From Eledone cirrhosa (Eukaryota): a DNA stretch of 64,000 nucleotides. The stretch lies in NCBI GenBank assembly GCA_964016885.1, contig OZ024740.1:43524001-43588000 (forward strand), written 5' to 3'. Below are positions 24,869 to 64,000 of the stretch, one piece after another. A program made the position numbers and the translations under genes. Within the stretch, counting starts at the first letter, position 1; each line of letters begins with the position of its first letter. The notes under the pieces are model-generated. The model was not told where the DNA came from. It did no database searches and saw only the letters and a list, made by a program, of their open reading frames with translations.

Positions 24869-25831
24869 CTCTTTTTATAGTAAGAAATTGTTCTCGCTCC
24901 ACATAATGACGTAAATATAGTTTAAACATTATTATTTTTAGTTTTATTTTCAATAAAAATAACTTTATTAATATTTAAAAACGGAAAGGTAGGGAAAGGC
25001 AAGCGCTCCAGTATCACAGAAGATGGAAGGAGAAAGGGGAAAAGTGATAGGCTCTGGGCCTAGAGTGCCGCAGTGTTGGGGCAGCGCCCAGCGGACAAGA
25101 CCGCTAAATCATTTCCACGGACAATGGCTAGATAGACCCGCTGTAACAGGAACTCCAACTCGCGAGGCTCCTTCCTCAGACGGATGCCGACGTTCTGATC
25201 TTGCAGAAGAGGTCGGGAATACGGGGTCTGAGGTCTCAGTGGCGATCGGTGCGAACAATCATCGGTATTAGTCTTCCTTTCCTCTGCATTGCGGGCCGCT
25301 GTGCCGGGATTTGTGTCCTAAGTAACTAATTTGGAGGCGGCGGAGAACGTATCGTAACATGTAATTATCGTTGCATATTTTTCGCCCATCGCCAGAGAAT
25401 GTCTTCGCGAACCACCGTTATGTCTTCCTGTTTTCTTTTAGTTGAAACGATTTTTGAAATAATTACTTCTGTGTCTACAGATTGTTTTTTGTCAGTTTTA
25501 GAAGATCCCGTAATAGAGTGAAAACAGAAATTATTTGCTTGAATTTTAATCTGTACTATTAATAAATATTTACACTACGGGTTTATATATACTTATATAT
25601 ATATATATATATATATTTCGTTTCTGAATTTGTTTAGCAAGATTCGTTATCTGAAATCGTGTGTTGAAACCGATATTGTTATACTTTGGGAGGGTCATGT
25701 TGCCAATAAGAAACACACGCACCAGTTGCTTTCACTTCAATTTAATTTATTAAATATTTATAAATTTACAAATTTATAAATTTCTGGTTGGTTGGTTGGT
25801 TCCACAACCAGATAGTTGTTTATATATATAT

Positions 25832-25876
25832 AGTCATAGTTCTTTCGTCACACACTATGTGACCTCTTCAGTGACT
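25832..25876 (-). ncRNA. Minimal type I hammerhead ribozyme in the Penelope 3' pLTR
   Basis: agtca-CTGAAGA-g-gtcaca-tagtg-tgtgac-GAAA-gaac-TA-tgact. Stems I and II pair perfectly. Confidence 0.8.
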
Positions 25877-26182
25877 GGGATTTCTTTCTTCGTTTCTGTG
25901 CCTTTCCTTTCTTCTATCCTACGCCATTTTGTTTGTGTGTGGGTTGCGTGCTCAGTTTGCGCATGCGCCACATCCGGGTGTCTGTGTGTGTTTGTGTTCA
26001 TTTTTCTATTTTTCTATTTATATTTTTCTATTTGTTTGTTTATTTATTTATTTATTGTTGGTTGGTTGTTTGTTCTATGTGTGTGTGTGTGTTTTCATTT
26101 TGTCTTGTGTGTGTTTTCATTTTGTGTGTGTTTTCAATTGTAAGTTGTTTGTTCTATGTGTGTGTGTGTTTTCATTTTGTCC

Positions 26183-28897
26183 TTAATTGTAAGTTGTGAT
26201 GTTGCTGTTCCACTCATATTTTCTATTTAATTTTGGTTTTAATTCTTTTATGCTTACTGCCTCTGTAATTTGCCTAAACATTGCGTCTTTCTTGTGTGTG
26301 GATTCTATTTTTATTTCTATGCTCTCTAATTTACCCCTGTGTTCTATCTTAGCATGTTGGTAGAGCACAGATGATTCTTTACTATCTTGGAGGTCTCGCC
26401 AGTGTTCATTTATTCGTTCCCCTATACTACGAGCTGTCTCACCTATGTACACTATATTTTTGTTTCTACATTGTCCTTCAGTACATCTTATGCTATATAC
26501 TACATTTCTAGTTTTACAGTTAATATGGGGGCTTATTTTACAGGTTATACATTTCTTATCTATACATGAGGGTCTTTGGAACGGGTATGTCTTGCTAATA
26601 AGTGTTTTTACGGAGGTACCAGGTCTTTCTACTATCTTAATATTGAGATTATGTTTCTTTAGGGCCCTTCTAAATTTGTAGGCTAGTTCGCCTCTAGGGG
26701 TTGTATTGATGAACATTACACTCTGGTATTTATTGCTATCATACCATGAGTTTATTCTATTGGCCTTGTTCTTAGTTCTTTCTATTCTATTCCAAAATTT
26801 GCTCCTATACAAGGGGCAGGTCCCATTTATGTCATTATTTACCATTTTTTCCCATTTGGTTCTGGCTCCTTTATACACTCTGATTCTATCTCTCTGATTG
26901 TAGCCAGAGAACTGCATACGGTGGATGAAGTGTTGTATGTGTCTCTCTAGTTCTTCGGGGTTGCACATGCGGGACACATTTTTCATCACCCGTACCAAAT
27001 CCGCAATCAGTATGTTGATTTTGGTATGGTCCGAAATGGCCGAGTTTCGGTGGATCAGATGTTTGGAAGTCATGGGTTTGGCATAATGGGAATGGAGGAT
27101 TTGTTTTTGGTTGTTAATAGTATCTAACCAGAGCTCTGTGTCTAGTACAGGTAATCGATGGTTGGGGTGTCTACTTGGGTAGTCTATAGTAACTCTAATG
27201 CTCTGGTGGATGGAGTTTGCTATTTGCTGGATGCTTTCCATTGTGTTTTTCTCTAGTTCCTGACTGTTCTTTAGTGGGGGTGTCTTAACTACGATGTTTA
27301 TATCATCTACGTAGCGGGAGTACATTATCAGGGTTAAGCTGTCTTCTAATTGTTCATTAAGTTTTTGTTTAAGTCTACTGTCCCACCATACCATGAATAA
27401 GTTAGCTATGTCGCCTGCAATGCTAACACCAATGGCTGCTCCTTCCTCTTGGGCATATGTTTTACCATTAAATTTGAACATATGTTCCTTAAGGGTTAAT
27501 TTTATGCTGGCCCCTACCGCATGTGCAATCATTTTCTTCAGTTCATCGTGGTTTTCGGGTGTCCGTATGGCTCTGGTCCACCCGTTCCATCTATCTGTGT
27601 GGGTTTTCTTGGCCATTGAGGTAATGGTAGGTGGTCTGCCTCTTGCTGGTCTTGTAGGGCACAGGTTGCTAAGGTCATAAGTGTCTAGGTAACTATTACT
27701 ATGGGTAAGCTTAAGTAGAAGTCCCAGCTCACTGGTATCAATCCCACGGAACTCAACCTTGCTCTCGCCGATCATTTCGACGCATTTCTCCACAGCAAAA
27801 TCCACGTCAATAGATGGATACAGGGACACAACATCCATACTGCCTATTATGCAGTTTGTTAGGTCCCCAGATCGGTTACCCGCGCCGATTCTGCCGAGGA
27901 GGTCCTCCGTGCTGTCACACACATCTGGGGACATCTCGATGATGGGGCGTATGATCAGGGAGAGGAAGTAGGACAGTCTGTAGTTACTAGCAATGTTAGC
28001 CCCACAGACTGGCCGTGTTGGTGGTCCCGCGACAGGGTCCCAGCCCGTTTTATGGTCTTTTCGAAGCCCATACAACGCCGGCACGTCATTGTTCCAGGCC
28101 TGGAAGTTGTTGGCAGTCCTTTTGTTGGGCTGCATTATATTTGTCCACATCACCATATGGGCATTGAGGGTTTTTTCTCTATCCTCATGCTCCTGTGGTG
28201 TTACCTCTCTTGTGTTAGTGATGTGGGGTTGCATTGCCTGGATGTAGTTTGGCAGGCTGTCAACCGACATTCTGCCAGACTTGTCTGTTGGAAAGCATGC
28301 TATCTCTCCATTACACGAGCGCTGCATGAGCTTACGCAAGCCATTTGCAGATTCTTCTCCCAGTTGCTGGGCCTCTATTCTATTATGCTTCTTGCTATAC
28401 TGTTCTATAATATTTCTAAGTTCGGATTTAGCTATACTAAATTGTGCTTCTGTTTGTTCATCGACCTGCGACGGCAACTGCGTGCGTTTGTTAAATGGCA
28501 AAGTCGTGGCGTGGACTCGTCGCAGGTCGAATGATTTATCGGAGGGGTTATAAAACGGAGAGTTCCAGGCTGCTGCTTTATGTGTACTAGTGCTATTGTT
28601 ATTGTTAGTTGTGTTGTTTCTATTTCCACCAACAGCAGCAGCCTCAGCTTCATGGTTGTTTCTATGTCTCTCATAATTACTCCTGTCTCTTTCCACTGGC
28701 TCAATGTTGTTATCTACCCTATTTTGTGTGTCTGTGTGTTCGTCTTGGTTATTCTCTTTGTCCTTAGTCTCCCATCTCCTTTTCCTTTTCCTTTTAATCC
28801 TATTACTTTCTCTTATTTCTCTGATTTCTGTGCTACTGTCATTACTTGTTTTCTGTGTCTGTGTGTTTGTTAAGATTGTGGTGGTGGTGAGAGGCAT
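26183..28897 (-). CDS. Penelope-like reverse transcriptase plus GIY-YIG endonuclease (904 aa open)
   Basis: PTDKSG, LYGLRKDHK, PTRPV, SMDVVSLYPSI, QEEGAAIG, RYVDDI, LPVLD, then NVVYSIRC...YIGETARSIGERINEH...EAVSI...LN. Confidence 0.93.
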   Translation of the reverse strand: MPLTTTTILTNTQTQKTSNDSSTEIREIRESNRIKRKRKRRWETKDKENNQDEHTDTQNRVDNNIEPVERDRSNYERHRNNHEAEAAAVGGNRNNTTNNNNSTSTHKAAAWNSPFYNPSDKSFDLRRVHATTLPFNKRTQLPSQVDEQTEAQFSIAKSELRNIIEQYSKKHNRIEAQQLGEESANGLRKLMQRSCNGEIACFPTDKSGRMSVDSLPNYIQAMQPHITNTREVTPQEHEDREKTLNAHMVMWTNIMQPNKRTANNFQAWNNDVPALYGLRKDHKTGWDPVAGPPTRPVCGANIASNYRLSYFLSLIIRPIIEMSPDVCDSTEDLLGRIGAGNRSGDLTNCIIGSMDVVSLYPSIDVDFAVEKCVEMIGESKVEFRGIDTSELGLLLKLTHSNSYLDTYDLSNLCPTRPARGRPPTITSMAKKTHTDRWNGWTRAIRTPENHDELKKMIAHAVGASIKLTLKEHMFKFNGKTYAQEEGAAIGVSIAGDIANLFMVWWDSRLKQKLNEQLEDSLTLIMYSRYVDDINIVVKTPPLKNSQELEKNTMESIQQIANSIHQSIRVTIDYPSRHPNHRLPVLDTELWLDTINNQKQILHSHYAKPMTSKHLIHRNSAISDHTKINILIADLVRVMKNVSRMCNPEELERHIQHFIHRMQFSGYNQRDRIRVYKGARTKWEKMVNNDINGTCPLYRSKFWNRIERTKNKANRINSWYDSNKYQSVMFINTTPRGELAYKFRRALKKHNLNIKIVERPGTSVKTLISKTYPFQRPSCIDKKCITCKISPHINCKTRNVVYSIRCTEGQCRNKNIVYIGETARSIGERINEHWRDLQDSKESSVLYQHAKIEHRGKLESIEIKIESTHKKDAMFRQITEAVSIKELKPKLNRKYEWNSNITTYN

Positions 28898-30032
28898 TGA
28901 AGGCGTGTGTGTTGTTGTTGTTGATGTGTGTTGTTGTTGATGTGTGTTGTTGTTGTCTCCGTGTGTGTGTGTTATCGTTGTTGTGTGTGTTGTTATTGTT
29001 GTTTGTGTTTGCGTGTCTGTTGTTGTTGTATCTGGGTATGTTGCTATTGTTGTTGTTGTTGATGTGTGTGTTGTTGTTATTATTGTCTCCGTGTGTGTTG
29101 TTATTGTTGTTTGTGTCTGCGTGTCTGTTGTATCTGGGTATGTTGCTATTGTTGTTGTTGTATCTGGGTATGTTGCTATTGTTGTTGTTATTGTTGTTTG
29201 TGTCTGTGTGTCTGTTGTTGTTGGGATGTGTGTTGTATATGTGTGTGCGTATATTGTTGCTTTTGTTTTTGTTTTTGATGCTCCAGCGTAGTTTCGTAAA
29301 TGATTTTTCTATTTCTGACAGACAACTAATCATATTTACCTTCTGGAATGTCGCAAATTTGGGTGGCAGACGTAACACAGACATTTCATTATTATCTATT
29401 TCCGTGTTTCCATAAATGTTGGTATTTTCATTGTTGAACTCTTCAGATAATGAGGTGTCGGCCATGTTGATACCGTCAATTTTGTCGGGATATCTATTGG
29501 TATACTCTATAGTATCCCGATTTAGCTTTGCCTGTTTAAGCCACTTTAATTTTCTGTTAAAGTGCTTATTACATTCTTGAGTAATGTACTGTTCTTCGGG
29601 GCGTATAAGGCTTATAAATGTTAGTTTTTCTGCTGGTGTGGTGATTTTAGATATTTCATCTATTAGGTTACGCTTTAGTTTTTCTTGATGACTTAATTCT
29701 CTATAGATCTTCTTTTTTATGTTTAGAATTAAAGTTCGTTTTAGCCTATCTGCTTGTTTTTTGGTGAGTTGTAATCTTCTAACGTCGGTATTGATGGTGT
29801 TGGTGTAGATTCTAGAAGTGGTGCACAGTTTTATGAAGTGTAGTTGTCGAGATGTTATGGTTTTTCGTAGACAACAGAACATGGTGGTTTTCAGTATCTT
29901 GTTAGCCTGGCTAAGGTTTACGATATTTCGTTTCTGAATTTGTTTAGCAAGATTCTTTATCTGAAATCGTGTGTTGAAACCGATATTGTTATACTTTGGG
30001 AGGGTCATGTTGCCAATAAGAAACACACGCAC
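28842..30032 (-). CDS. Penelope N-terminal portion (396 aa), probably the same ORF split by a frameshift within an N/T/H-rich repeat
   Basis: PLE-type N-terminus (LHFIKLC, E.SVLRLPPKFA, EIEKSFTKLRW). It overlaps the downstream ORF inside a (AAC/AC)-rich tandem tract. Confidence 0.75.
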   Translation of the reverse strand: MRVFLIGNMTLPKYNNIGFNTRFQIKNLAKQIQKRNIVNLSQANKILKTTMFCCLRKTITSRQLHFIKLCTTSRIYTNTINTDVRRLQLTKKQADRLKRTLILNIKKKIYRELSHQEKLKRNLIDEISKITTPAEKLTFISLIRPEEQYITQECNKHFNRKLKWLKQAKLNRDTIEYTNRYPDKIDGINMADTSLSEEFNNENTNIYGNTEIDNNEMSVLRLPPKFATFQKVNMISCLSEIEKSFTKLRWSIKNKNKSNNIRTHIYNTHPNNNRHTDTNNNNNNNSNIPRYNNNNSNIPRYNRHADTNNNNNTHGDNNNNNTHINNNNNSNIPRYNNNRHANTNNNNNTHNNDNTHTRRQQQHTSTTTHINNNNTHAFNASHHHHNLNKHTDTENK

Positions 30033-30239
30033 CAGTTGCTTTCACTTCAATTAATAACAAATTATTGTGTGACGAAAGAACTATGACTATATATATATAA
30101 ACAACTATCTGGTTGTGGAACCAACCAACCAACCAGAAATTTATAAATTTGTAAATTTATAAATATTTAATAAATTAAATTGAAGTGAAAGCAACTGGTG
30201 CGTGTGTTTCTTATTGGCAACATGACCCTCCCAAAGTAT

Positions 30240-30611
<372 letters not shown>

Positions 30612-55599: not shown

Positions 55600-56930
55600 T
55601 TATTTTCTTTACGTTTTTGGGGTTTCTTTTTTTTGTTTTTGTTTTTCTCTGTTTGTTTTTCTCGTTTTTTGCTGTTGTTGCTGTGCTGCTTTGGTTTTGT
55701 TTTTTGTTTTTTCTTTTTTCTTTTGGGTCTATCTATATATTTTGATGCCTTCCTCTTTGTTAGTAGTAGGAATTCTATAATGTGGAAGTAGCAGCCAGCA
55801 GGGAAGTGGGAGACTGGCGGCGTTAGCGATACTGAGACAGTGGTGGTGGTGATGTCGATACCGAGGCAGTGGTGGCGGTGATGTGACCGTATTACTGTAG
55901 TGATGGTGCTGTAGCGGAGTCAAGGGGTGGTGGCGGCGGTGCTGGGATAGTGGTAGTAATGATGGCCGTAGTGAGCGGTGGCGGTGAAGGTGAAAATGTG
56001 TCGTTATCTGGCTGTTGTGTTTAGTGTACACAGATGATGGGGTGGGTGGTGAATCTAGTTTCTGGTGTTGGTGAGTTTAGCTGTCCTATATAGTGTAGCC
56101 AGAGGAGAGGAGGGGAGGGGTTCTTCTTCCATTTATAGCCATTTTTTTTTTTTTTTTTTTTTTTCGGGATATACAGTTGAATATTTGAATATTTGAATAT
56201 TTGAATATACAGTTGAATATTTGAATATTTGAGCCTTATAACAATATATTTTCTTTACGTTTTGAGCCTTATAACAATATATTTTCTTTACGTTTTGAGC
56301 CTTATAACAATATATTTTCTTTACGTTTTTGGGGTTTCTTTTTTTTGTTTTTGTTTTTCTCTGTTTGTTTTTCTCGTTTTTTGCTGTTGTTGCTGTGCTG
56401 CTTTGGTTTTGTTGTTTGTTTTTTCTTTTTTCTTTTGGGTCTATCTATATATTTTGATGCCTTCCTCTTTGTTAGTAGTAGGAATTCTATAATGTGGGAG
56501 TAGCAGCCAGCAGGGAAGTGGGAGACTGGCGGCGTTAGCGATACTGAGACAGTGGTGGTGGTGATGTCGATACCGAGGCAGTGGTGGCGGTGATGTGACC
56601 GTATTACTGTAGTGATGGTGCTGTAGCGGAGTCAAGTGGTGGTGGCGGCGGTGATGGGATAGTGGTGGTAATGATGGCCGTAGTGAGCGGTGGCGGTGAA
56701 GGTGAAAATGTGTCGTTATCTGGCTGTTGTGTTTAGTGTACACATATGATGGGGTGGGTGGTGTATCTAGTTTCTGGTGTTGGTGAGTTTAGCTGTCCTA
56801 TATAGTGTAGCCAGAGGAGAGGAGGGGAGGGGTTCTTCTTCCATTTATAGCCATTTTTTTTTTGGATATACAGTGTACAATACAAAGTTGAATATTTGAA
56901 TATTTGAGCCTTATAACAATATATTTTGGG
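55600..56930. repeat. Tandem duplication with ~712-bp offset in the 5' UTR of copy C, with short 34-bp and 8-bp repeats at the junction
   Basis: ORFs 55729-56031 and 56441-56743 are near-identical. tttgagccttataacaatatattttctttacgtt is repeated at 56228-56330. Confidence 0.9.
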
Positions 56931-59226: not shown

Positions 59227-59259
<33 letters not shown>

Positions 59260-59264
<5 letters not shown>

Positions 59265-61391
59265 TATAGACATAGAATATTCGAAAATATTCTGTATGTT
59301 TATAATAAACATTTTGAAGACCTAATCGCTATAGAATAGAATACGTCACGTATTACAATTAGATTCTCGATAAAAGCAAGGAGAGTAATCTACGCGTTTC
59401 ATTCTTGTTAGAAATCATCAGGACTACATATCCAGTGCTTTTATCGAGAATGACACAGCTAGAGACTTATAGAATACTTAGCTGTGTACAGGAACTGGTT
59501 TGAAAGAGCGGTTGCCGGTCCGGCAGAAATTAGAAATTGGAATAAATGCTCTGAAATAGCGATATATATGTGAATATAGACATAGAATATTCGAAAATAT
59601 TCTGTATGTTTATAATAAACATTTTGAAGACCTAATCGCTATAGAATAGAATACGTCACGTATTACAATTAGATTCTCGATAAAAGCAAGGGAAGTAATC
59701 TACGCGTTTCATTCTTGTTAGAAATCATCAGGACTACATATCCAGTGCTTTTATCGAGAATGACACAGCTAGAGACTTATAGAATACTTAGCTGTGTACA
59801 GGAACTGGTTTGAAAGAGCGGTTGCCGGTCCGGCAGAAATTAGAAATTGGAATAAATGCTCTGAAATAGCAATATATATGTGAATATAGACATAGAATAT
59901 TCGAAAATATTCTGTATGTTTATAATAAACATTTTGAAGACCTAATCGCTATAGAATAGAATACGTCACGTATTACAATTAGATTCTCGATAAAAGCAAG
60001 GGAAGTAATCTACGCGTTTCATTCTTGTTAGAAATCATCAGGACTACATATCCAGTGCTTTTATCGAGAATGACACAGCTAGAGACTTATAGAATACTTA
60101 GCTGTGTACAGGAACTGGTTTGAAAGAGCGGTTGCCGGTCCGGCAGAAATTAGAAATTGGAATAAATGCTCTGAAATAGCGATATATATGTGAATATAGA
60201 CATAGAATATTCGAAAATATTCTGTATGTTTATAATAAACATTTTGAAGACCTAATCGCTATAGAATAGAATACGTCACGTATTACAATTAGATTCTCGA
60301 TAAAAGCAAGGGAAGTAATCTACGCGTTTCATTCTTGTTAGAAATCATCAGGACTACATATCCAGTGCTTTTATCGAGAATGACACAGCTAGAGACTTAT
60401 AGAATACTTAGCTGTGTACAGGAACTGGTTTGAAAGAGCGGTTGCCGGTCCGGCAGAAATTAGAAATTGGAATAAATGCTCTGAAATAGCGATATATATG
60501 TGAATATAGACATAGAATATTCGAAAATATTCTGTATGTTTATAATAAACATTTTGAAGACCTAATCGCTATAGAATAGAATACGTCACGTATTACAATT
60601 AGATTCTCGATAAAAGCAAGGGAAGTAATCTACGCGTTTCATTCTTGTTAGAAATCATCAGGACTACATATCCAGTGCTTTTATCGAGAATGACACAGCT
60701 AGAGACTTATAGAATACTTAGCTGTGTACAGGAACTGGTTTGAAAGAGCGGTTGCCGGTCCGGCAGAAATTAGAAATTGGAATAAATGCTCTGAAATAGC
60801 GATATATATGTGAATATAGACATAGAATATTCGAAAATATTCTGTATGTTTATAATAAACATTTTGAAGACCTAATCGCTATAGAATAGAATACGTCACG
60901 TATTACAATTAGATTCTCGATAAAAGCAAGGGAAGTAATCTACGCGTTTCATTCTTGTTAGAAATCATCAGGACTACATATCCAGTGCTTTTATCGAGAA
61001 TGACACAGCTAGAGACTTATAGAATACTTAGCTGTGTACAGGAACTGGTTTGAAAGAGCGGTTGCCGGTCCGGCAGAAATTAGAAATTGGAATAAATGCT
61101 CTGAAATAGCGATATATATGTGAATATAGACATAGAATATTCGAAAATATTCTGTATGTTTATAATAAACATTTTGAAGACCTAATCGCTATAGAATAGA
61201 ATACGTCACGTATTACAATTAGATTCTCGATAAAAGCAAGGGAAGTAATCTACGCGTTTCATTCTTGTTAGAAATCATCAGGACTACATATCCAGTGCTT
61301 TTATCGAGAATGACACAGCTAGAGACTTATAGAATACTTAGCTGTGTACAGGAACTGGTTTGAAAGAGCGGTTGCCGGTCCGGCAGAAATT
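59260..61391 (-). mobile_element. Tandem array of about 6.9 near-identical 310-bp monomers, each with a hammerhead (candidate non-LTR retrozyme)
   Basis: Units start at 59261, 59571, 59881, 60191, 60501, 60811 and 61121. There is no ORF, and (TA)n lies at the left end. Confidence 0.9.
59385..59427 (-). ncRNA. Minimal type I hammerhead ribozyme (also at 59695, 60005, 60315, 60625, 60935, 61245, 63065, 63373 and 63681)
   Basis: gtagtc-CTGATGA-tttct-aaca-agaat-GAAAC-gc-GTA^gattac. Stem I is gtagtc/gattac and stem III is the palindrome ACGCGT. Confidence 0.88.
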
Positions 61392-61403
61392 ATATATATT
61401 CAC

Positions 61404-61759
61404 ATATATTCACATATATATCGCTATTTCAGAGCATTTATTCCAATTTCTAATTTCTGCCGGACCGGCAACCGCTCTTTCAAACCAGTTCCTGTACACA
61501 GCTAAGTATTCTATAAGTCTCTAGCTGTGTCATTCTCGATAAAAGCACTGGATATGTAGTCCTGATGATTTCTAACAAGAATGAAACGCGTAGATTACTT
61601 CCCTTGCTTTTATCGAGAATCTAATTGTAATACGTGACGTATTCTATTCTATAGCGATTAGGTCTTCAAAATGTTTATTATAAACATACAGAATATTTTC
61701 GAATATTCTATGTCTATATTCACATATATATCGCTATTTCAGAGCATTTATTCCAATTT
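61404..61759 (+). mobile_element. Inverted ~1.1 monomer at the 5' (sense) end of array 1, with an HHR at 61556-61598
   Basis: Reverse complement of the 310-bp type unit, ending in (TA)n. Confidence 0.9.
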
Positions 61760-61917: not shown

Positions 61918-62666
61918 CGTTTGGTTTCGCTTTTTCTACCAGCCAAAATAAGATTCTCGCTGAATTTATATTTATTTATTTAAATATATCATACACCTAC
62001 GGTAGTAGGTGTAAAATATTCTTAAGGTCCCATTTCGGTCACTCGCGACACCTTCAAATCTTTGTCACTAATTCAATTTTTGATAGAATTGGATGCGGCT
62101 TTTTGCACTTTATAGGACCACAGATAAGCTACTTTTTTACATAAAAATATTGAAATTTTGTTCAGTAGAAAAAAAGTTACATGAAAATAAGTAACGCTTA
62201 GTTTGTTTCTAATTTCTAATACATTAAAATAGTGATAGATTGTGCAATAGTGTATTGTGGTCAGGTAGCTCAGTCGGTAGAGCAGCGGACCGGCAATCCG
62301 AAGGTCGTGGGTTTGATTCCCACCCTGATTACTTTTCCTATCTGCACTTCTTCCTATTCATTATTATTTATTTAACTTATTTGTTGATAGATATTTTTAA
62401 TATTAATCCTAAACCGACGGTAGTCGGTTTAGTAATATTGTTGTCTTAGTGATTTCGTTGGCAATCGTCTCTTTACAGCATTATTAGAATGTCTTCCGAT
62501 TATCAAAATCACAAGAAAGTTATATGAGCATGGAGAGTAAATCATTGCACATCTCTTAAGCTAAAAATCTCGAAATTTCGTTCAGCACAAAAAAAGTTAT
62601 GATCAAAGTTTGCTGAAAAAAACTGTGTTCAAGTGAGTAAGTGAGTGAGTAAGGGTGACGCTCTGT
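61915..62666. mobile_element. Probable non-autonomous DNA element (Helentron-associated or DINE-1-like) between (TA)n tracts
   Basis: Stem-loops acacctac-ggta-gtaggtgt (about 61993-62012) and taaaccgac-ggta-gtcggttta (62411-62432), and a (GAGT)-type microsatellite near the end. Its first ~65 bp match 9213-9270 in reverse. Confidence 0.4.
62259..62331 (+). pseudogene. tRNA-like sequence (pseudo-tRNA or SINE head; nominal anticodon GGC)
   Basis: Cloverleaf GGTCAGG/CCTGATT, D arm GCTC-AGTCGGTA-GAGC, T arm GTGGG-TTTGATT-CCCAC, followed by TTTT. It has C at position 33 and a non-canonical T loop. Confidence 0.65.
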
Positions 62667-62682
62667 TATATATATTTATATT

Positions 62683-62715
<33 letters not shown>

Positions 62716-62784
62716 ATATTTATATATTTATATTTATATATATATATATTTATATTTATATATATATATATTTATCTATATATT

Positions 62785-62820
<36 letters not shown>

Positions 62821-62854
62821 TATATATATTTATATATATATTTATATATATATT

Positions 62855-62885
<31 letters not shown>

Positions 62886-62907
62886 TTATATATATATATA
62901 TATATAT

Positions 62908-63899
62908 ATTGGAATAAATGCTCTGAAATAGCGATATATATGTGAATATAGACATAGAATATTCGAAAATATTCTGTATGTTTATAATAAACATTTTGAA
63001 GACCTAATCGCTATAGAATAATACGTCACGTATTACAATTAGATTCTCGATAAAAGCAAGGGAAGTAATCTACGCGTTTCATTCTTGTTAGAAATCATCA
63101 GGACTACATATCCAGTGCTTTTATCGAGAATGACACAGCTAGAGACTTATAGAATACTTAGCTGTGTACAGGAACTGGTTTGAAAGAGCGGTTGCCGGTC
63201 CGGCAGAAATTAGAAATTGGAATAAATGCTCTGAAATAGCGATATATATGTGAATATAGACATAGAATATTCGAAAATATTCTGTATGTTTATAATAAAC
63301 ATTTTGAAGACCTAATCGCTATAGAATAATACGTCACGTATTACAATTAGATTCTCGATAAAAGCAAGGGAAGTAATCTACGCGTTTCATTCTTGTTAGA
63401 AATCATCAGGACTACATATCCAGTGCTTTTATCGAGAATGACACAGCTAGAGACTTATAGAATACTTAGCTGTGTACAGGAACTGGTTTGAAAGAGCGGT
63501 TGCCGGTCCGGCAGAAATTAGAAATTGGAATAAATGCTCTGAAATAGCGATATATATGTGAATATAGACATAGAATATTCGAAAATATTCTGTATGTTTA
63601 TAATAAACATTTTGAAGACCTAATCGCTATAGAATAATACGTCACGTATTACAATTAGATTCTCGATAAAAGCGAGGGAAGTAATCTACGCGTTTCATTC
63701 TTGTTAGAAATCATCAGGACTACATATCCAGTGCTTTTATCGAGAATGACACAGCTAGAGACTTATAGAATACTTAGCTGTGTACAGGAACTGGTTTGAA
63801 AGAGCGGTTGCCGGTCCGGCAGAAATTAGAAATTGGAATAAATGCTCTGAAATAGCGATATATATGTGAATATAGACATAGAATATTCGAAAATATTCT
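62908..63899 (-). mobile_element. Second retrozyme-like array, about 3.2 monomers of 308 bp
   Basis: Same unit with a shared 2-bp deletion (agaataatac versus agaatagaatac), preceded by (TA)-rich microsatellite. Confidence 0.9.
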
Positions 63900-64000
63900 A
63901 TGTCTATATTCTATGTCTATATTCACATATATATCGCTATTTCAGAGCATTTATTCCAATTTCTAATTTCTGCCGGACCGGCAACCGCTCTTTCAAACCA
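63900..64000 (+). mobile_element. Inverted (fold-back) arm of array 2, running off the window end
   Basis: Reverse complement of the immediately preceding sequence, with its apex in the native hairpin agaatatt-cgaa-aatattct. Confidence 0.9.

What the first reader, a model, noticed from the sequence alone, without database searches (positions are those of the whole stretch)
63870..63930. Inversion apex falls exactly on a native hairpin: footprint of cDNA fold-back self-priming
Seen: the native unit reads gacatagaatatt-cgaa-aatattct-gtatg. At the end of array 2 it reads gacatagaatatt-cgaa-aatattct-atgtctatattc, so synthesis switches to copying itself right after the hairpin closes, with one short stutter repeat. 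The + strand is the cDNA strand for an HHR-sense RNA. Inference: the nascent cDNA 3' end folded back and primed second-strand synthesis.
Basis: partly seen in the sequence, partly recalled or inferred. Interest (0 to 1): 0.72.

Follow-up and report, generated by a model that had tools for sequence, protein, structure and literature searches.

The report
Inverted end of a retrozyme insertion
A small ribozyme-carrying mobile repeat in an animal genome flips direction exactly at one of its own hairpins; such flipped ends are a known mark of Penelope-type retrotransposition, and related copies suggest that priming from both ends of the target site, not hairpin fold-back, is the usual cause.

Summary
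The sequence is as described. A 3.2-copy array of a 308-nt hammerhead repeat (non-LTR retrozyme) turns round at 63892-63899, the 8-bp stem of a native hairpin, followed by a 13-nt stutter. The + strand is antisense to the ribozyme.

Fold-back is possible but not shown, because the same 8 bp would serve equally as microhomology between two cDNAs. Array 1 (59252-61759) has the same inversion plus stutter without a hairpin apex. Its inverted arm starts at a (TA)n flank, at a recurrent start site 28-37 nt from the other start site, which is the Penelope 'tail' signature. Six further inversion junctions were seen in public contigs. None uses this hairpin, and 5 of 6 have an end at unit 183-199, the main priming site.

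Best reading: a Penelope-type inverted 5' end, with two target-primed cDNAs joined at the stem (0.50). Full snap-back: 0.35. Inverted 5' copies and self-priming at junction palindromes are already in print for Penelope elements (PMC8557442, PMC3846280). The deciding sequence lies about 120-270 bases beyond the window's end.

The parts
62908..63899 (+). Array 2: 3.2 head-to-tail copies of a 308-nt retrozyme unit, in cDNA sense; starts at unit position 157 behind a (TA)-rich tract
63880..63899 (+). Native hairpin (8-bp stem, 4-nt loop; unit 205-224) at the inversion apex; its 3' arm 63892-63899 is the 8-nt microhomology shared by the forward and inverted arms
63893..63924 (+). 13-nt stutter duplication, explained by slippage between two native 6-nt direct repeats 13 nt apart (unit 193-198 and 206-211); found once in the window
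63906..64000 (-). Inverted arm 2 (unit 211 down to 117), cut off by the window end
63677..63729 (-). Type I hammerhead motif of the last forward unit (stem I, CUGAUGA, stem II with a U-U pair at its base, GAAA, short palindromic stem III); predicted cut between 63687 and 63686
   Evidence: core layout from established knowledge; self-cleavage not tested
63674..63674 (+). Private A>G variant of the last forward unit; a marker that a long fold-back arm should copy at about 64118 if the variant predates the inversion
62667..62909 (.). (TA)-rich microsatellite, target of array 2
59252..61392 (+). Array 1: 6.9 copies of the 310-nt variant; starts at unit 183-192 behind (TA)n, ends at unit 153
61393..61404 (+). 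Junction of array 1: 2 nt plus a 10-nt stutter; no hairpin apex
61405..61759 (-). Inverted arm 1 (355 nt; in cDNA sense unit 155 round to 199), outer end abutting (TA)n
25613..30247 (-). Comparator in the same window: Penelope-like element (RT plus C-terminal GIY-YIG, ORF 26183-29308) with a hammerhead motif near 25871, partial pLTR 29923-30052, inverted pLTR 30063-30247, 60-nt tail and (TA)n flanks

Best explanation
This is the inverted 5' end of a non-LTR retrozyme insertion made by a Penelope-like RT/GIY-YIG protein in a (TA)n tract. Both target strands are cut and each primes a cDNA on retrozyme RNA, at one of two preferred start zones about 30-40 nt apart (unit 150-157 and 183-192). The two cDNA 3' ends meet head to head and are joined by microhomology-mediated repair with repeated priming, which leaves the stutter. 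In array 2 the forward cDNA ended at unit 217-224, and the native inverted repeat gave the best local microhomology (8 nt). A short snap-back of 12-20 nt before joining in trans is allowed within this model. Shown: anatomy, polarity, start zones, junction clustering, and the full geometry of array 1. Inferred: the enzyme, two-end priming for array 2, and the repair pathway.
For: (1) In array 1 both outer ends abut (TA)n, at unit 183-192 and unit 155, 28-37 nt apart. This matches the 30-40 bp PLE tail, shown in vitro to lie between two RT start sites, with both target strands cut and extended (PMC11167929). (2) Unit 150-157 is a recurrent start: array 2 (157), contig loose ends with (TA)n at 150, 152 and 155 (X1, X2) and at 157 in another organism (X5). 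It has only 0-2 nt of TA microhomology, so it is not just a sticky spot. Unit 183 is the start in 9 (X1) and 6 (X2) contigs. (3) Array 1 stops at unit 153 and its inverted arm starts at 155, the contiguity expected of twin priming (chance 0.016). (4) 5 of 6 contig junctions have one end at unit 183-199 (P 7.5e-5; 0.0066 under a conservative correction for the stretch laid), so cDNAs stop at the main priming zone rather than at the strongest cDNA hairpins (unit 105-111, 146, 229-235). (5) The autonomous PLE in the window has the same layout, and its inverted junction is not at a hairpin apex. (6) Templated, iterative insertions are a hallmark of Pol theta joining (PMC12426944).
Against: The outer end of inverted arm 2 is outside the window, so two-end priming is not seen for this insertion. 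Array 2 stops 18-25 nt past the 183-199 zone where most junction ends lie, and both of its ends fall within 20 nt, which one fold-back event explains more simply. Two other junctions (unit 196|187 and 190|189) also have short-loop apexes at a TA palindrome. Twin priming itself is called a model awaiting experimental validation (PMC10760644). The junction sample is small and was decoded from short contigs, and some tables were truncated.
Confidence: 0.5

Rival explanations
1. One reading: the nascent cDNA 3' end stopped at unit 217-224, folded back on the 8-bp stem and primed synthesis of the whole inverted arm on itself (snap-back), slipping once; the far end was then joined to the target.
For: The apex is exactly in register with a 4-nt-loop hairpin (-4.1 kcal/mol; 14 of 310 ends do as well). 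One event explains both junction ends. Snap-back junctions are documented for R2-protein insertions (PMC11371274), and self-priming was proposed for PLEs from palindromes at inverted junctions (PMC3846280). 3 of 8 junctions have short loops.
Against: It does not explain array 1 without extra coincidences (a 264-nt loop, and an arm that ends on a start site). 5 of 8 junctions have distant ends, and 0 of 6 contig junctions use this or the stronger hairpins. The private 63674 G has depth 17.8 and 16.0, like the junction seen in both runs (14.7, 14.2), not double that. This last point is weak, because single-copy depth is uncertain and the variant may postdate insertion.
Confidence: 0.35
2. The inversion arose after insertion, by a replication template switch or break repair at the quasi-palindrome inside an already integrated array.
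For: The junction converts an imperfect native palindrome into a longer perfect one (-21 kcal/mol). Self-annealing of resected ends is a described source of inverted duplications (10.1101/2024.12.14.628481).
Against: The inversions seen in full (array 1 and the PLE) stop exactly at the element/(TA)n border on start sites and copy no flank. Inverted 5' copies are a regular feature of PLE insertions (PMC8557442).
Confidence: 0.08
3. Long-read fold-back chimera or assembly artefact.
For: The window ends 100 bases after the apex, so a full mirror image cannot be excluded. X1 shows depth 0 at 63900-63904, and no listed piece is shown to span the junction.
Against: X2 contigs carry the post-apex letters at summed depth 46, and the private variant of the same unit is present in both runs. 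Four of the six other junctions were also seen in only one of the two runs. A clean microhomology stutter of the same kind sits at array 1, whose arm ends in unique flank.
Confidence: 0.07

Closest known systems
Metazoan non-LTR retrozymes (PMC7229834; bioRxiv 10.64898/2026.07.22.740005)
   Same: Tandem 308-310-nt units, GC about 30-32% over the array regions, a type I hammerhead in every unit, no ORF, strongly self-paired monomer (z -5.2).
   Different: In the passages read, neither paper describes inverted arms, tails or junction structure ('inverted' 0 hits in PMC7229834; 'tail' 0 hits in the preprint). Expression and cleavage were not tested here.
Endonuclease-bearing Penelope-like elements: inverted 5'-truncated copy, 30-40 bp tail, (TA)n targets (PMC8557442, PMC3846280, PMC11167929)
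   Same: Head-to-head inverted copy at the 5' end, a tail on one end only (28-37 nt in array 1), microsatellite target, hammerhead; some junctions at palindromes.
   Different: Non-coding and multimeric; no nucleotide similarity to the pLTR of the PLE in this window. The 2013 self-priming proposal invoked an antisense RNA template rather than cDNA fold-back.
L1 5' inversion by twin priming (described in PMC10760644 and PMC4245944; the original 2001 paper was not read)
   Same: Second primer from the other target strand, contiguity of the two segments on the template (array 1), microhomology at the inner junction.
   Different: No poly(A) tail; fixed internal start zones; repeated template.
Snap-back 5' junctions of R2-protein insertions (PMC11371274)
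   Same: A cDNA 3' end priming synthesis on itself gives the same local sequence as seen at 63892-63930.
   Different: Those were engineered insertions in human cells. Here the only fully visible inverted arm of the family ends on a priming site, which snap-back does not predict.

Membership tests
Non-LTR retrozyme | Tandem repeats of 150-450 bp, low GC, dimers to multimers | tested here: met
   310 nt x 6.9 and 308 nt x 3.2; GC about 30-32% in the 2-kb bins holding the arrays; definition from PMC7229834 passages
Non-LTR retrozyme | Type I hammerhead motif in every unit | tested here: met
   Core motif in 11 places, one per complete unit. Rfam Hammerhead_HH9 matches only below its gathering score (19.2 vs 52 bits, E 0.03) and not at all at the gathering threshold. 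Stem I forms in the fold.
Non-LTR retrozyme | Self-cleavage and accumulation as linear or circular monomer RNA | not testable with these tools
   No RNA holder was listed; no assay is possible
Non-LTR retrozyme | No protein coding, no LTR/PBS/PPT; dispersed copies | tested here: met
   No ORF of 150 aa or more in the arrays; many (TA)n-flanked ends in contigs of two organisms. PBS and PPT were not searched for explicitly.
PLE-type insertion | Inverted 5'-truncated copy next to the 5' end | tested here: met
   Both arrays and the autonomous PLE
PLE-type insertion | 30-40 bp tail on one end (two RT start sites) | tested here: met
   Array 1: 28-37 nt; two start zones in contigs. Not visible for array 2.
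PLE-type insertion | AT-rich or microsatellite target | tested here: met
   All three visible retrozyme ends abut (TA)n
PLE-type insertion | A cognate autonomous PLE sharing the pLTR sequence | tested here: inconclusive
   The PLE in the window shares the layout but no sequence; no genome was held to search
Snap-back (fold-back) junction | Apex at a short-loop inverted repeat | tested here: met
   8-bp stem, 4-nt loop
Snap-back (fold-back) junction | Inverted arm copies private variants of the forward arm, is no longer than it, and does not end on a priming site | not testable with these tools
   Needs positions 64118-64270, beyond the window; the depth of the 63674 variant is inconclusive
Twin-primed inversion | Outer end of the inverted arm is target-primed and contiguous on the template with the end of the first cDNA | tested here: inconclusive
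   Met for array 1 (unit 153 | 155); not visible for array 2

The most novel reading that the evidence does not exclude
Retrozyme arrays carry the complete Penelope integration signature (two start sites, tail, inverted 5' arm). Their junctions show that the unexplained inverted ends of PLEs arise mainly by priming from both target strands at the two start sites, each cDNA stopping near the other's priming site, with hairpin snap-back as a minority route. A high-copy retrozyme family would then be a natural reporter that settles how PLE tandem/inverted structures form, and direct structural evidence that PLE proteins mobilise retrozymes. Searches listed no paper making this link, but the library lacks most subscription papers.
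Probability: 0.45. Interest if true: 0.52.

Novelty: new member of a known kind. Interest (0 to 1): 0.32.

Why it matters
How Penelope-like elements make their tandem and inverted ends is described as still undefined (PMC8557442), and the link between retrozymes and PLEs has rested on shared ribozymes and phylogeny in the papers read. One junction at a hairpin adds little, since the self-priming idea is over ten years old and the junction fits two models. The family, however, with many (TA)n-flanked ends in the contigs and fixed start zones, offers a cheap genome-wide test between snap-back and two-end priming.

Tried and rejected
No whole genome is held, so the sequence past 64000 and a full apex table could not be obtained. 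Two metagenome scans with unit motifs found 0 matches. Earlier findings: nothing by place or by words. Rfam at the gathering threshold found only a tRNA-like element. No RNA holder was listed; this says nothing about expression.

Rows dropped before counting:
- The large end peaks of run X21 at 63653/56 and 63827/31 coincide with AATT sites, so they were taken as restriction ends of the library.
- The single X21 opposite-strand joint (unit 117 and 194; 98 reads, 1 start) has an ambiguous orientation.
- Six 'goes back' rows are native tandem continuation.
- Two of the 7 skip rows are one junction read on opposite strands and were merged, giving 6.
- Two of those 6 have low depth (3.7-5.8) and may be library artefacts; counts are given with and without them.

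The array 1 junction was not listed in X1 or X2; the tool warns that holes prove nothing. Rejected: priming at the ribozyme cut site (unit 11/12), because none of the ends listed maps there. Rejected: the stutter as proof of fold-back, because it also occurs without a hairpin.

Full report
SETTING. The window is animal-like DNA rich in microsatellites and retroelements; no genome is held for it. Its right end holds two arrays of one repeat: array 1 (59252-61392; 6.9 copies of 310 nt) and array 2 (62908-63899; 3.2 copies of a 308-nt variant lacking 2 nt). Unit coordinates below count from window 60000 = u1. Each complete unit carries a type I hammerhead motif on the - strand, with the cut predicted between u12 and u11. 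Rfam sees it only weakly (Hammerhead_HH9, 19.2 bits against a gathering score of 52). The monomer folds far better than shuffles (z -5.2; 0 of 100). This fits the definition of metazoan non-LTR retrozymes (PMC7229834, passages).

THE OBSERVATION. Array 2 runs to u224, the end of a native hairpin (8-bp stem, 4-nt loop, 63880-63899), and continues as the reverse complement from u204. The 8 nt at 63892-63899 belong to both readings. After 12 nt the arm slips back 13 nt by way of two native 6-nt direct repeats, then runs without mismatch to the window end. Only 14 of 310 possible 3' ends close a comparable hairpin, so pairing in this stem guided the junction. I laid 4 of the 23 listed runs on 63592-64000 only. 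X2 contigs carry the window's letters at 63900, 63902 and 63904 (summed depth 46); X1, the same sample, shows 0; in X21 about 2-3 of 9 reads counted at 63900 carry the window's letter. The private variant at 63674 is present in X1 and X2 at depth 17.8 and 16.0. This makes an artefact unlikely but does not show a record spanning the junction; 1314 rows of pieces were not displayed.

WHY THE APEX DOES NOT DECIDE THE MECHANISM. An inverted repeat lets one cDNA end pair with itself (snap-back) or with a second cDNA of the same sense coming from the other target end (twin priming). The local sequence is the same either way. The models differ at the far end of the inverted arm, which for array 2 lies outside the window.

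ARRAY 1 IS FULLY VISIBLE. It starts behind (TA)n at u183-192 and stops at u153. After 2 nt and a 10-nt stutter, an inverted arm of 355 nt follows, whose outer end abuts (TA)n at u155. There is no hairpin apex. The outer end is contiguous with the stop of the array (chance 0.016) and lies in a start zone used again by array 2 (u157), by contig ends flanked by (TA)n at u150, 152 and 155, and by another organism at u157. One or two of these contig ends may be the window's own, and 107 loose-end rows were not shown. That zone has 0-2 nt of TA microhomology, against 8 nt at u183, where 9 and 6 contigs start. The two zones are 28-37 nt apart. In vitro, a Penelope protein cuts and extends both target strands and starts at two internal sites whose spacing is the 30-40 bp genomic tail (PMC11167929, parts 1-2 of 4). 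Array 1 is therefore best read as two target-primed cDNAs joined head to head, and it shows that stutter occurs without a hairpin. Iterative templated insertions are typical of Pol theta end joining (PMC12426944, passages).

FAMILY-WIDE JUNCTIONS. The joint table has 14 rows: 7 skips into the inverted arm, 1 opposite-strand row (left out as ambiguous) and 6 native continuations. The 7 skips decode to 6 distinct inversion junctions: u262|194, 307|191, 62|185, 64|165, 196|187 (seen in both runs, on opposite strands) and 190|189. None uses the u205-224 hairpin or the stronger cDNA hairpins ending at u105-111, 146 or 229-235. Five of 6 have one end at u183-199 (P 7.5e-5; 0.0066 if one end is assumed forced into the mirrored part of the stretch laid). 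With the two window junctions, 7 of 8 have an end at u183-212. Three of 8 have both ends within 20 nt (P 0.077; 2 of 6 without the low-depth rows, P 0.18). So cDNA ends cluster at the main priming zone, and a minority of junctions, this one among them, look like short-loop folds. The cluster could reflect collision with the second primer or, on a circular template, with the cDNA's own start; these data do not separate the two. The sample is small and comes from short contigs.

A COMPARATOR. A Penelope-like element at 25613-30247 (- strand; RT E 4e-4, below Pfam's cut-off; GIY-YIG above cut-off; hammerhead motif near 25871) has the same layout: direct partial pLTR, inverted pLTR, a 60-nt tail and (TA)n on both sides. 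Its junction has a short insert and is not at a hairpin apex. It shares no detectable sequence with the retrozyme, so it is not shown to be the partner.

WHAT IS KNOWN. An inverted 5'-truncated copy, a tail and (TA)n bias are standard PLE features whose origin is called undefined (PMC8557442, passages). Self-priming was proposed for PLEs in 2013 from palindromes at inverted junctions, though on an antisense template (PMC3846280, passages, outline and Discussion). cDNA snap-back junctions are described for R2-protein insertions (PMC11371274, passages). Twin priming is the standing model for L1 5' inversions (PMC10760644, PMC10191854, PMC4245944, passages; the 2001 original was not read). Self-annealing of resected ends is described in 10.1101/2024.12.14.628481 (passages). 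A 2026 preprint derives non-LTR retrozymes from PLE pLTRs (10.64898/2026.07.22.740005, parts 1-2 of 5 and passages). No supplements were read; the supplementary figures of PMC11167929 and PMC7229834 may bear on tails and on retrozyme integration. Searches listed no paper that ties retrozyme inversions or PLE inverted ends to two-end priming; the library omits most subscription papers.

VERDICT. The junction is most likely real and is a retrozyme example of the known PLE inverted end. For this junction I put two-end priming with microhomology joining at the stem at 0.50, full fold-back at 0.35, a later template switch at 0.08 and artefact at 0.07. The more useful lead is the tail and start-site signature across the family. 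Interest 0.32.

Noticed in passing
window 25613-30247 (-): Penelope-like element with a C-terminal GIY-YIG preceded by a CX4CXXC motif (Neptune/Nematis-like by the description in PMC8557442; no tree made), a hammerhead in the 3' pLTR, an inverted pLTR and a 60-nt tail, longer than the usual 30-40. A second ORF (28842-30041) overlaps the main one across a Thr/Asn-rich repeat.
   Followed up: partly
window 61393-61404 and 63893-63924: Both retrozyme junctions carry a short duplication (10 and 13 nt) within unit 190-211, next to the main priming zone.
   Followed up: yes
laid stretch, 63896 (unit 221), runs X1 and X2: Another copy ends inside the 3' arm of the same hairpin and joins (TA)n directly, so a cDNA can stop there without folding back.
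   Followed up: partly
unit 183-190 and 150-157: On the ribozyme-sense strand a TATA-like run lies about 30 nt upstream of the second start zone. If it were a promoter, the RNA 5' end would fall near unit 153, where array 1 stops. Speculation only.
   Followed up: no
window 63020, 63328, 63636: All units of array 2 share a 2-nt deletion that is rare in the family (3842 of 3994 X21 reads carry the 2 nt), consistent with repeated copying of one template molecule.
   Followed up: partly
window 62259-62331: tRNA-like sequence (64 bits) between the two arrays, probably the head of a SINE.
   Followed up: no
run X5 (another organism): A 340-nt contig closes on itself as a 310-nt unit nearly identical to the window's, so the family is shared by at least two labelled organisms.
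   Followed up: partly
window 55638-56596: Short repeats recur 712 nt apart (55638/56350, 55827/56539), suggesting a local duplication around a 33-nt tandem repeat.
   Followed up: no
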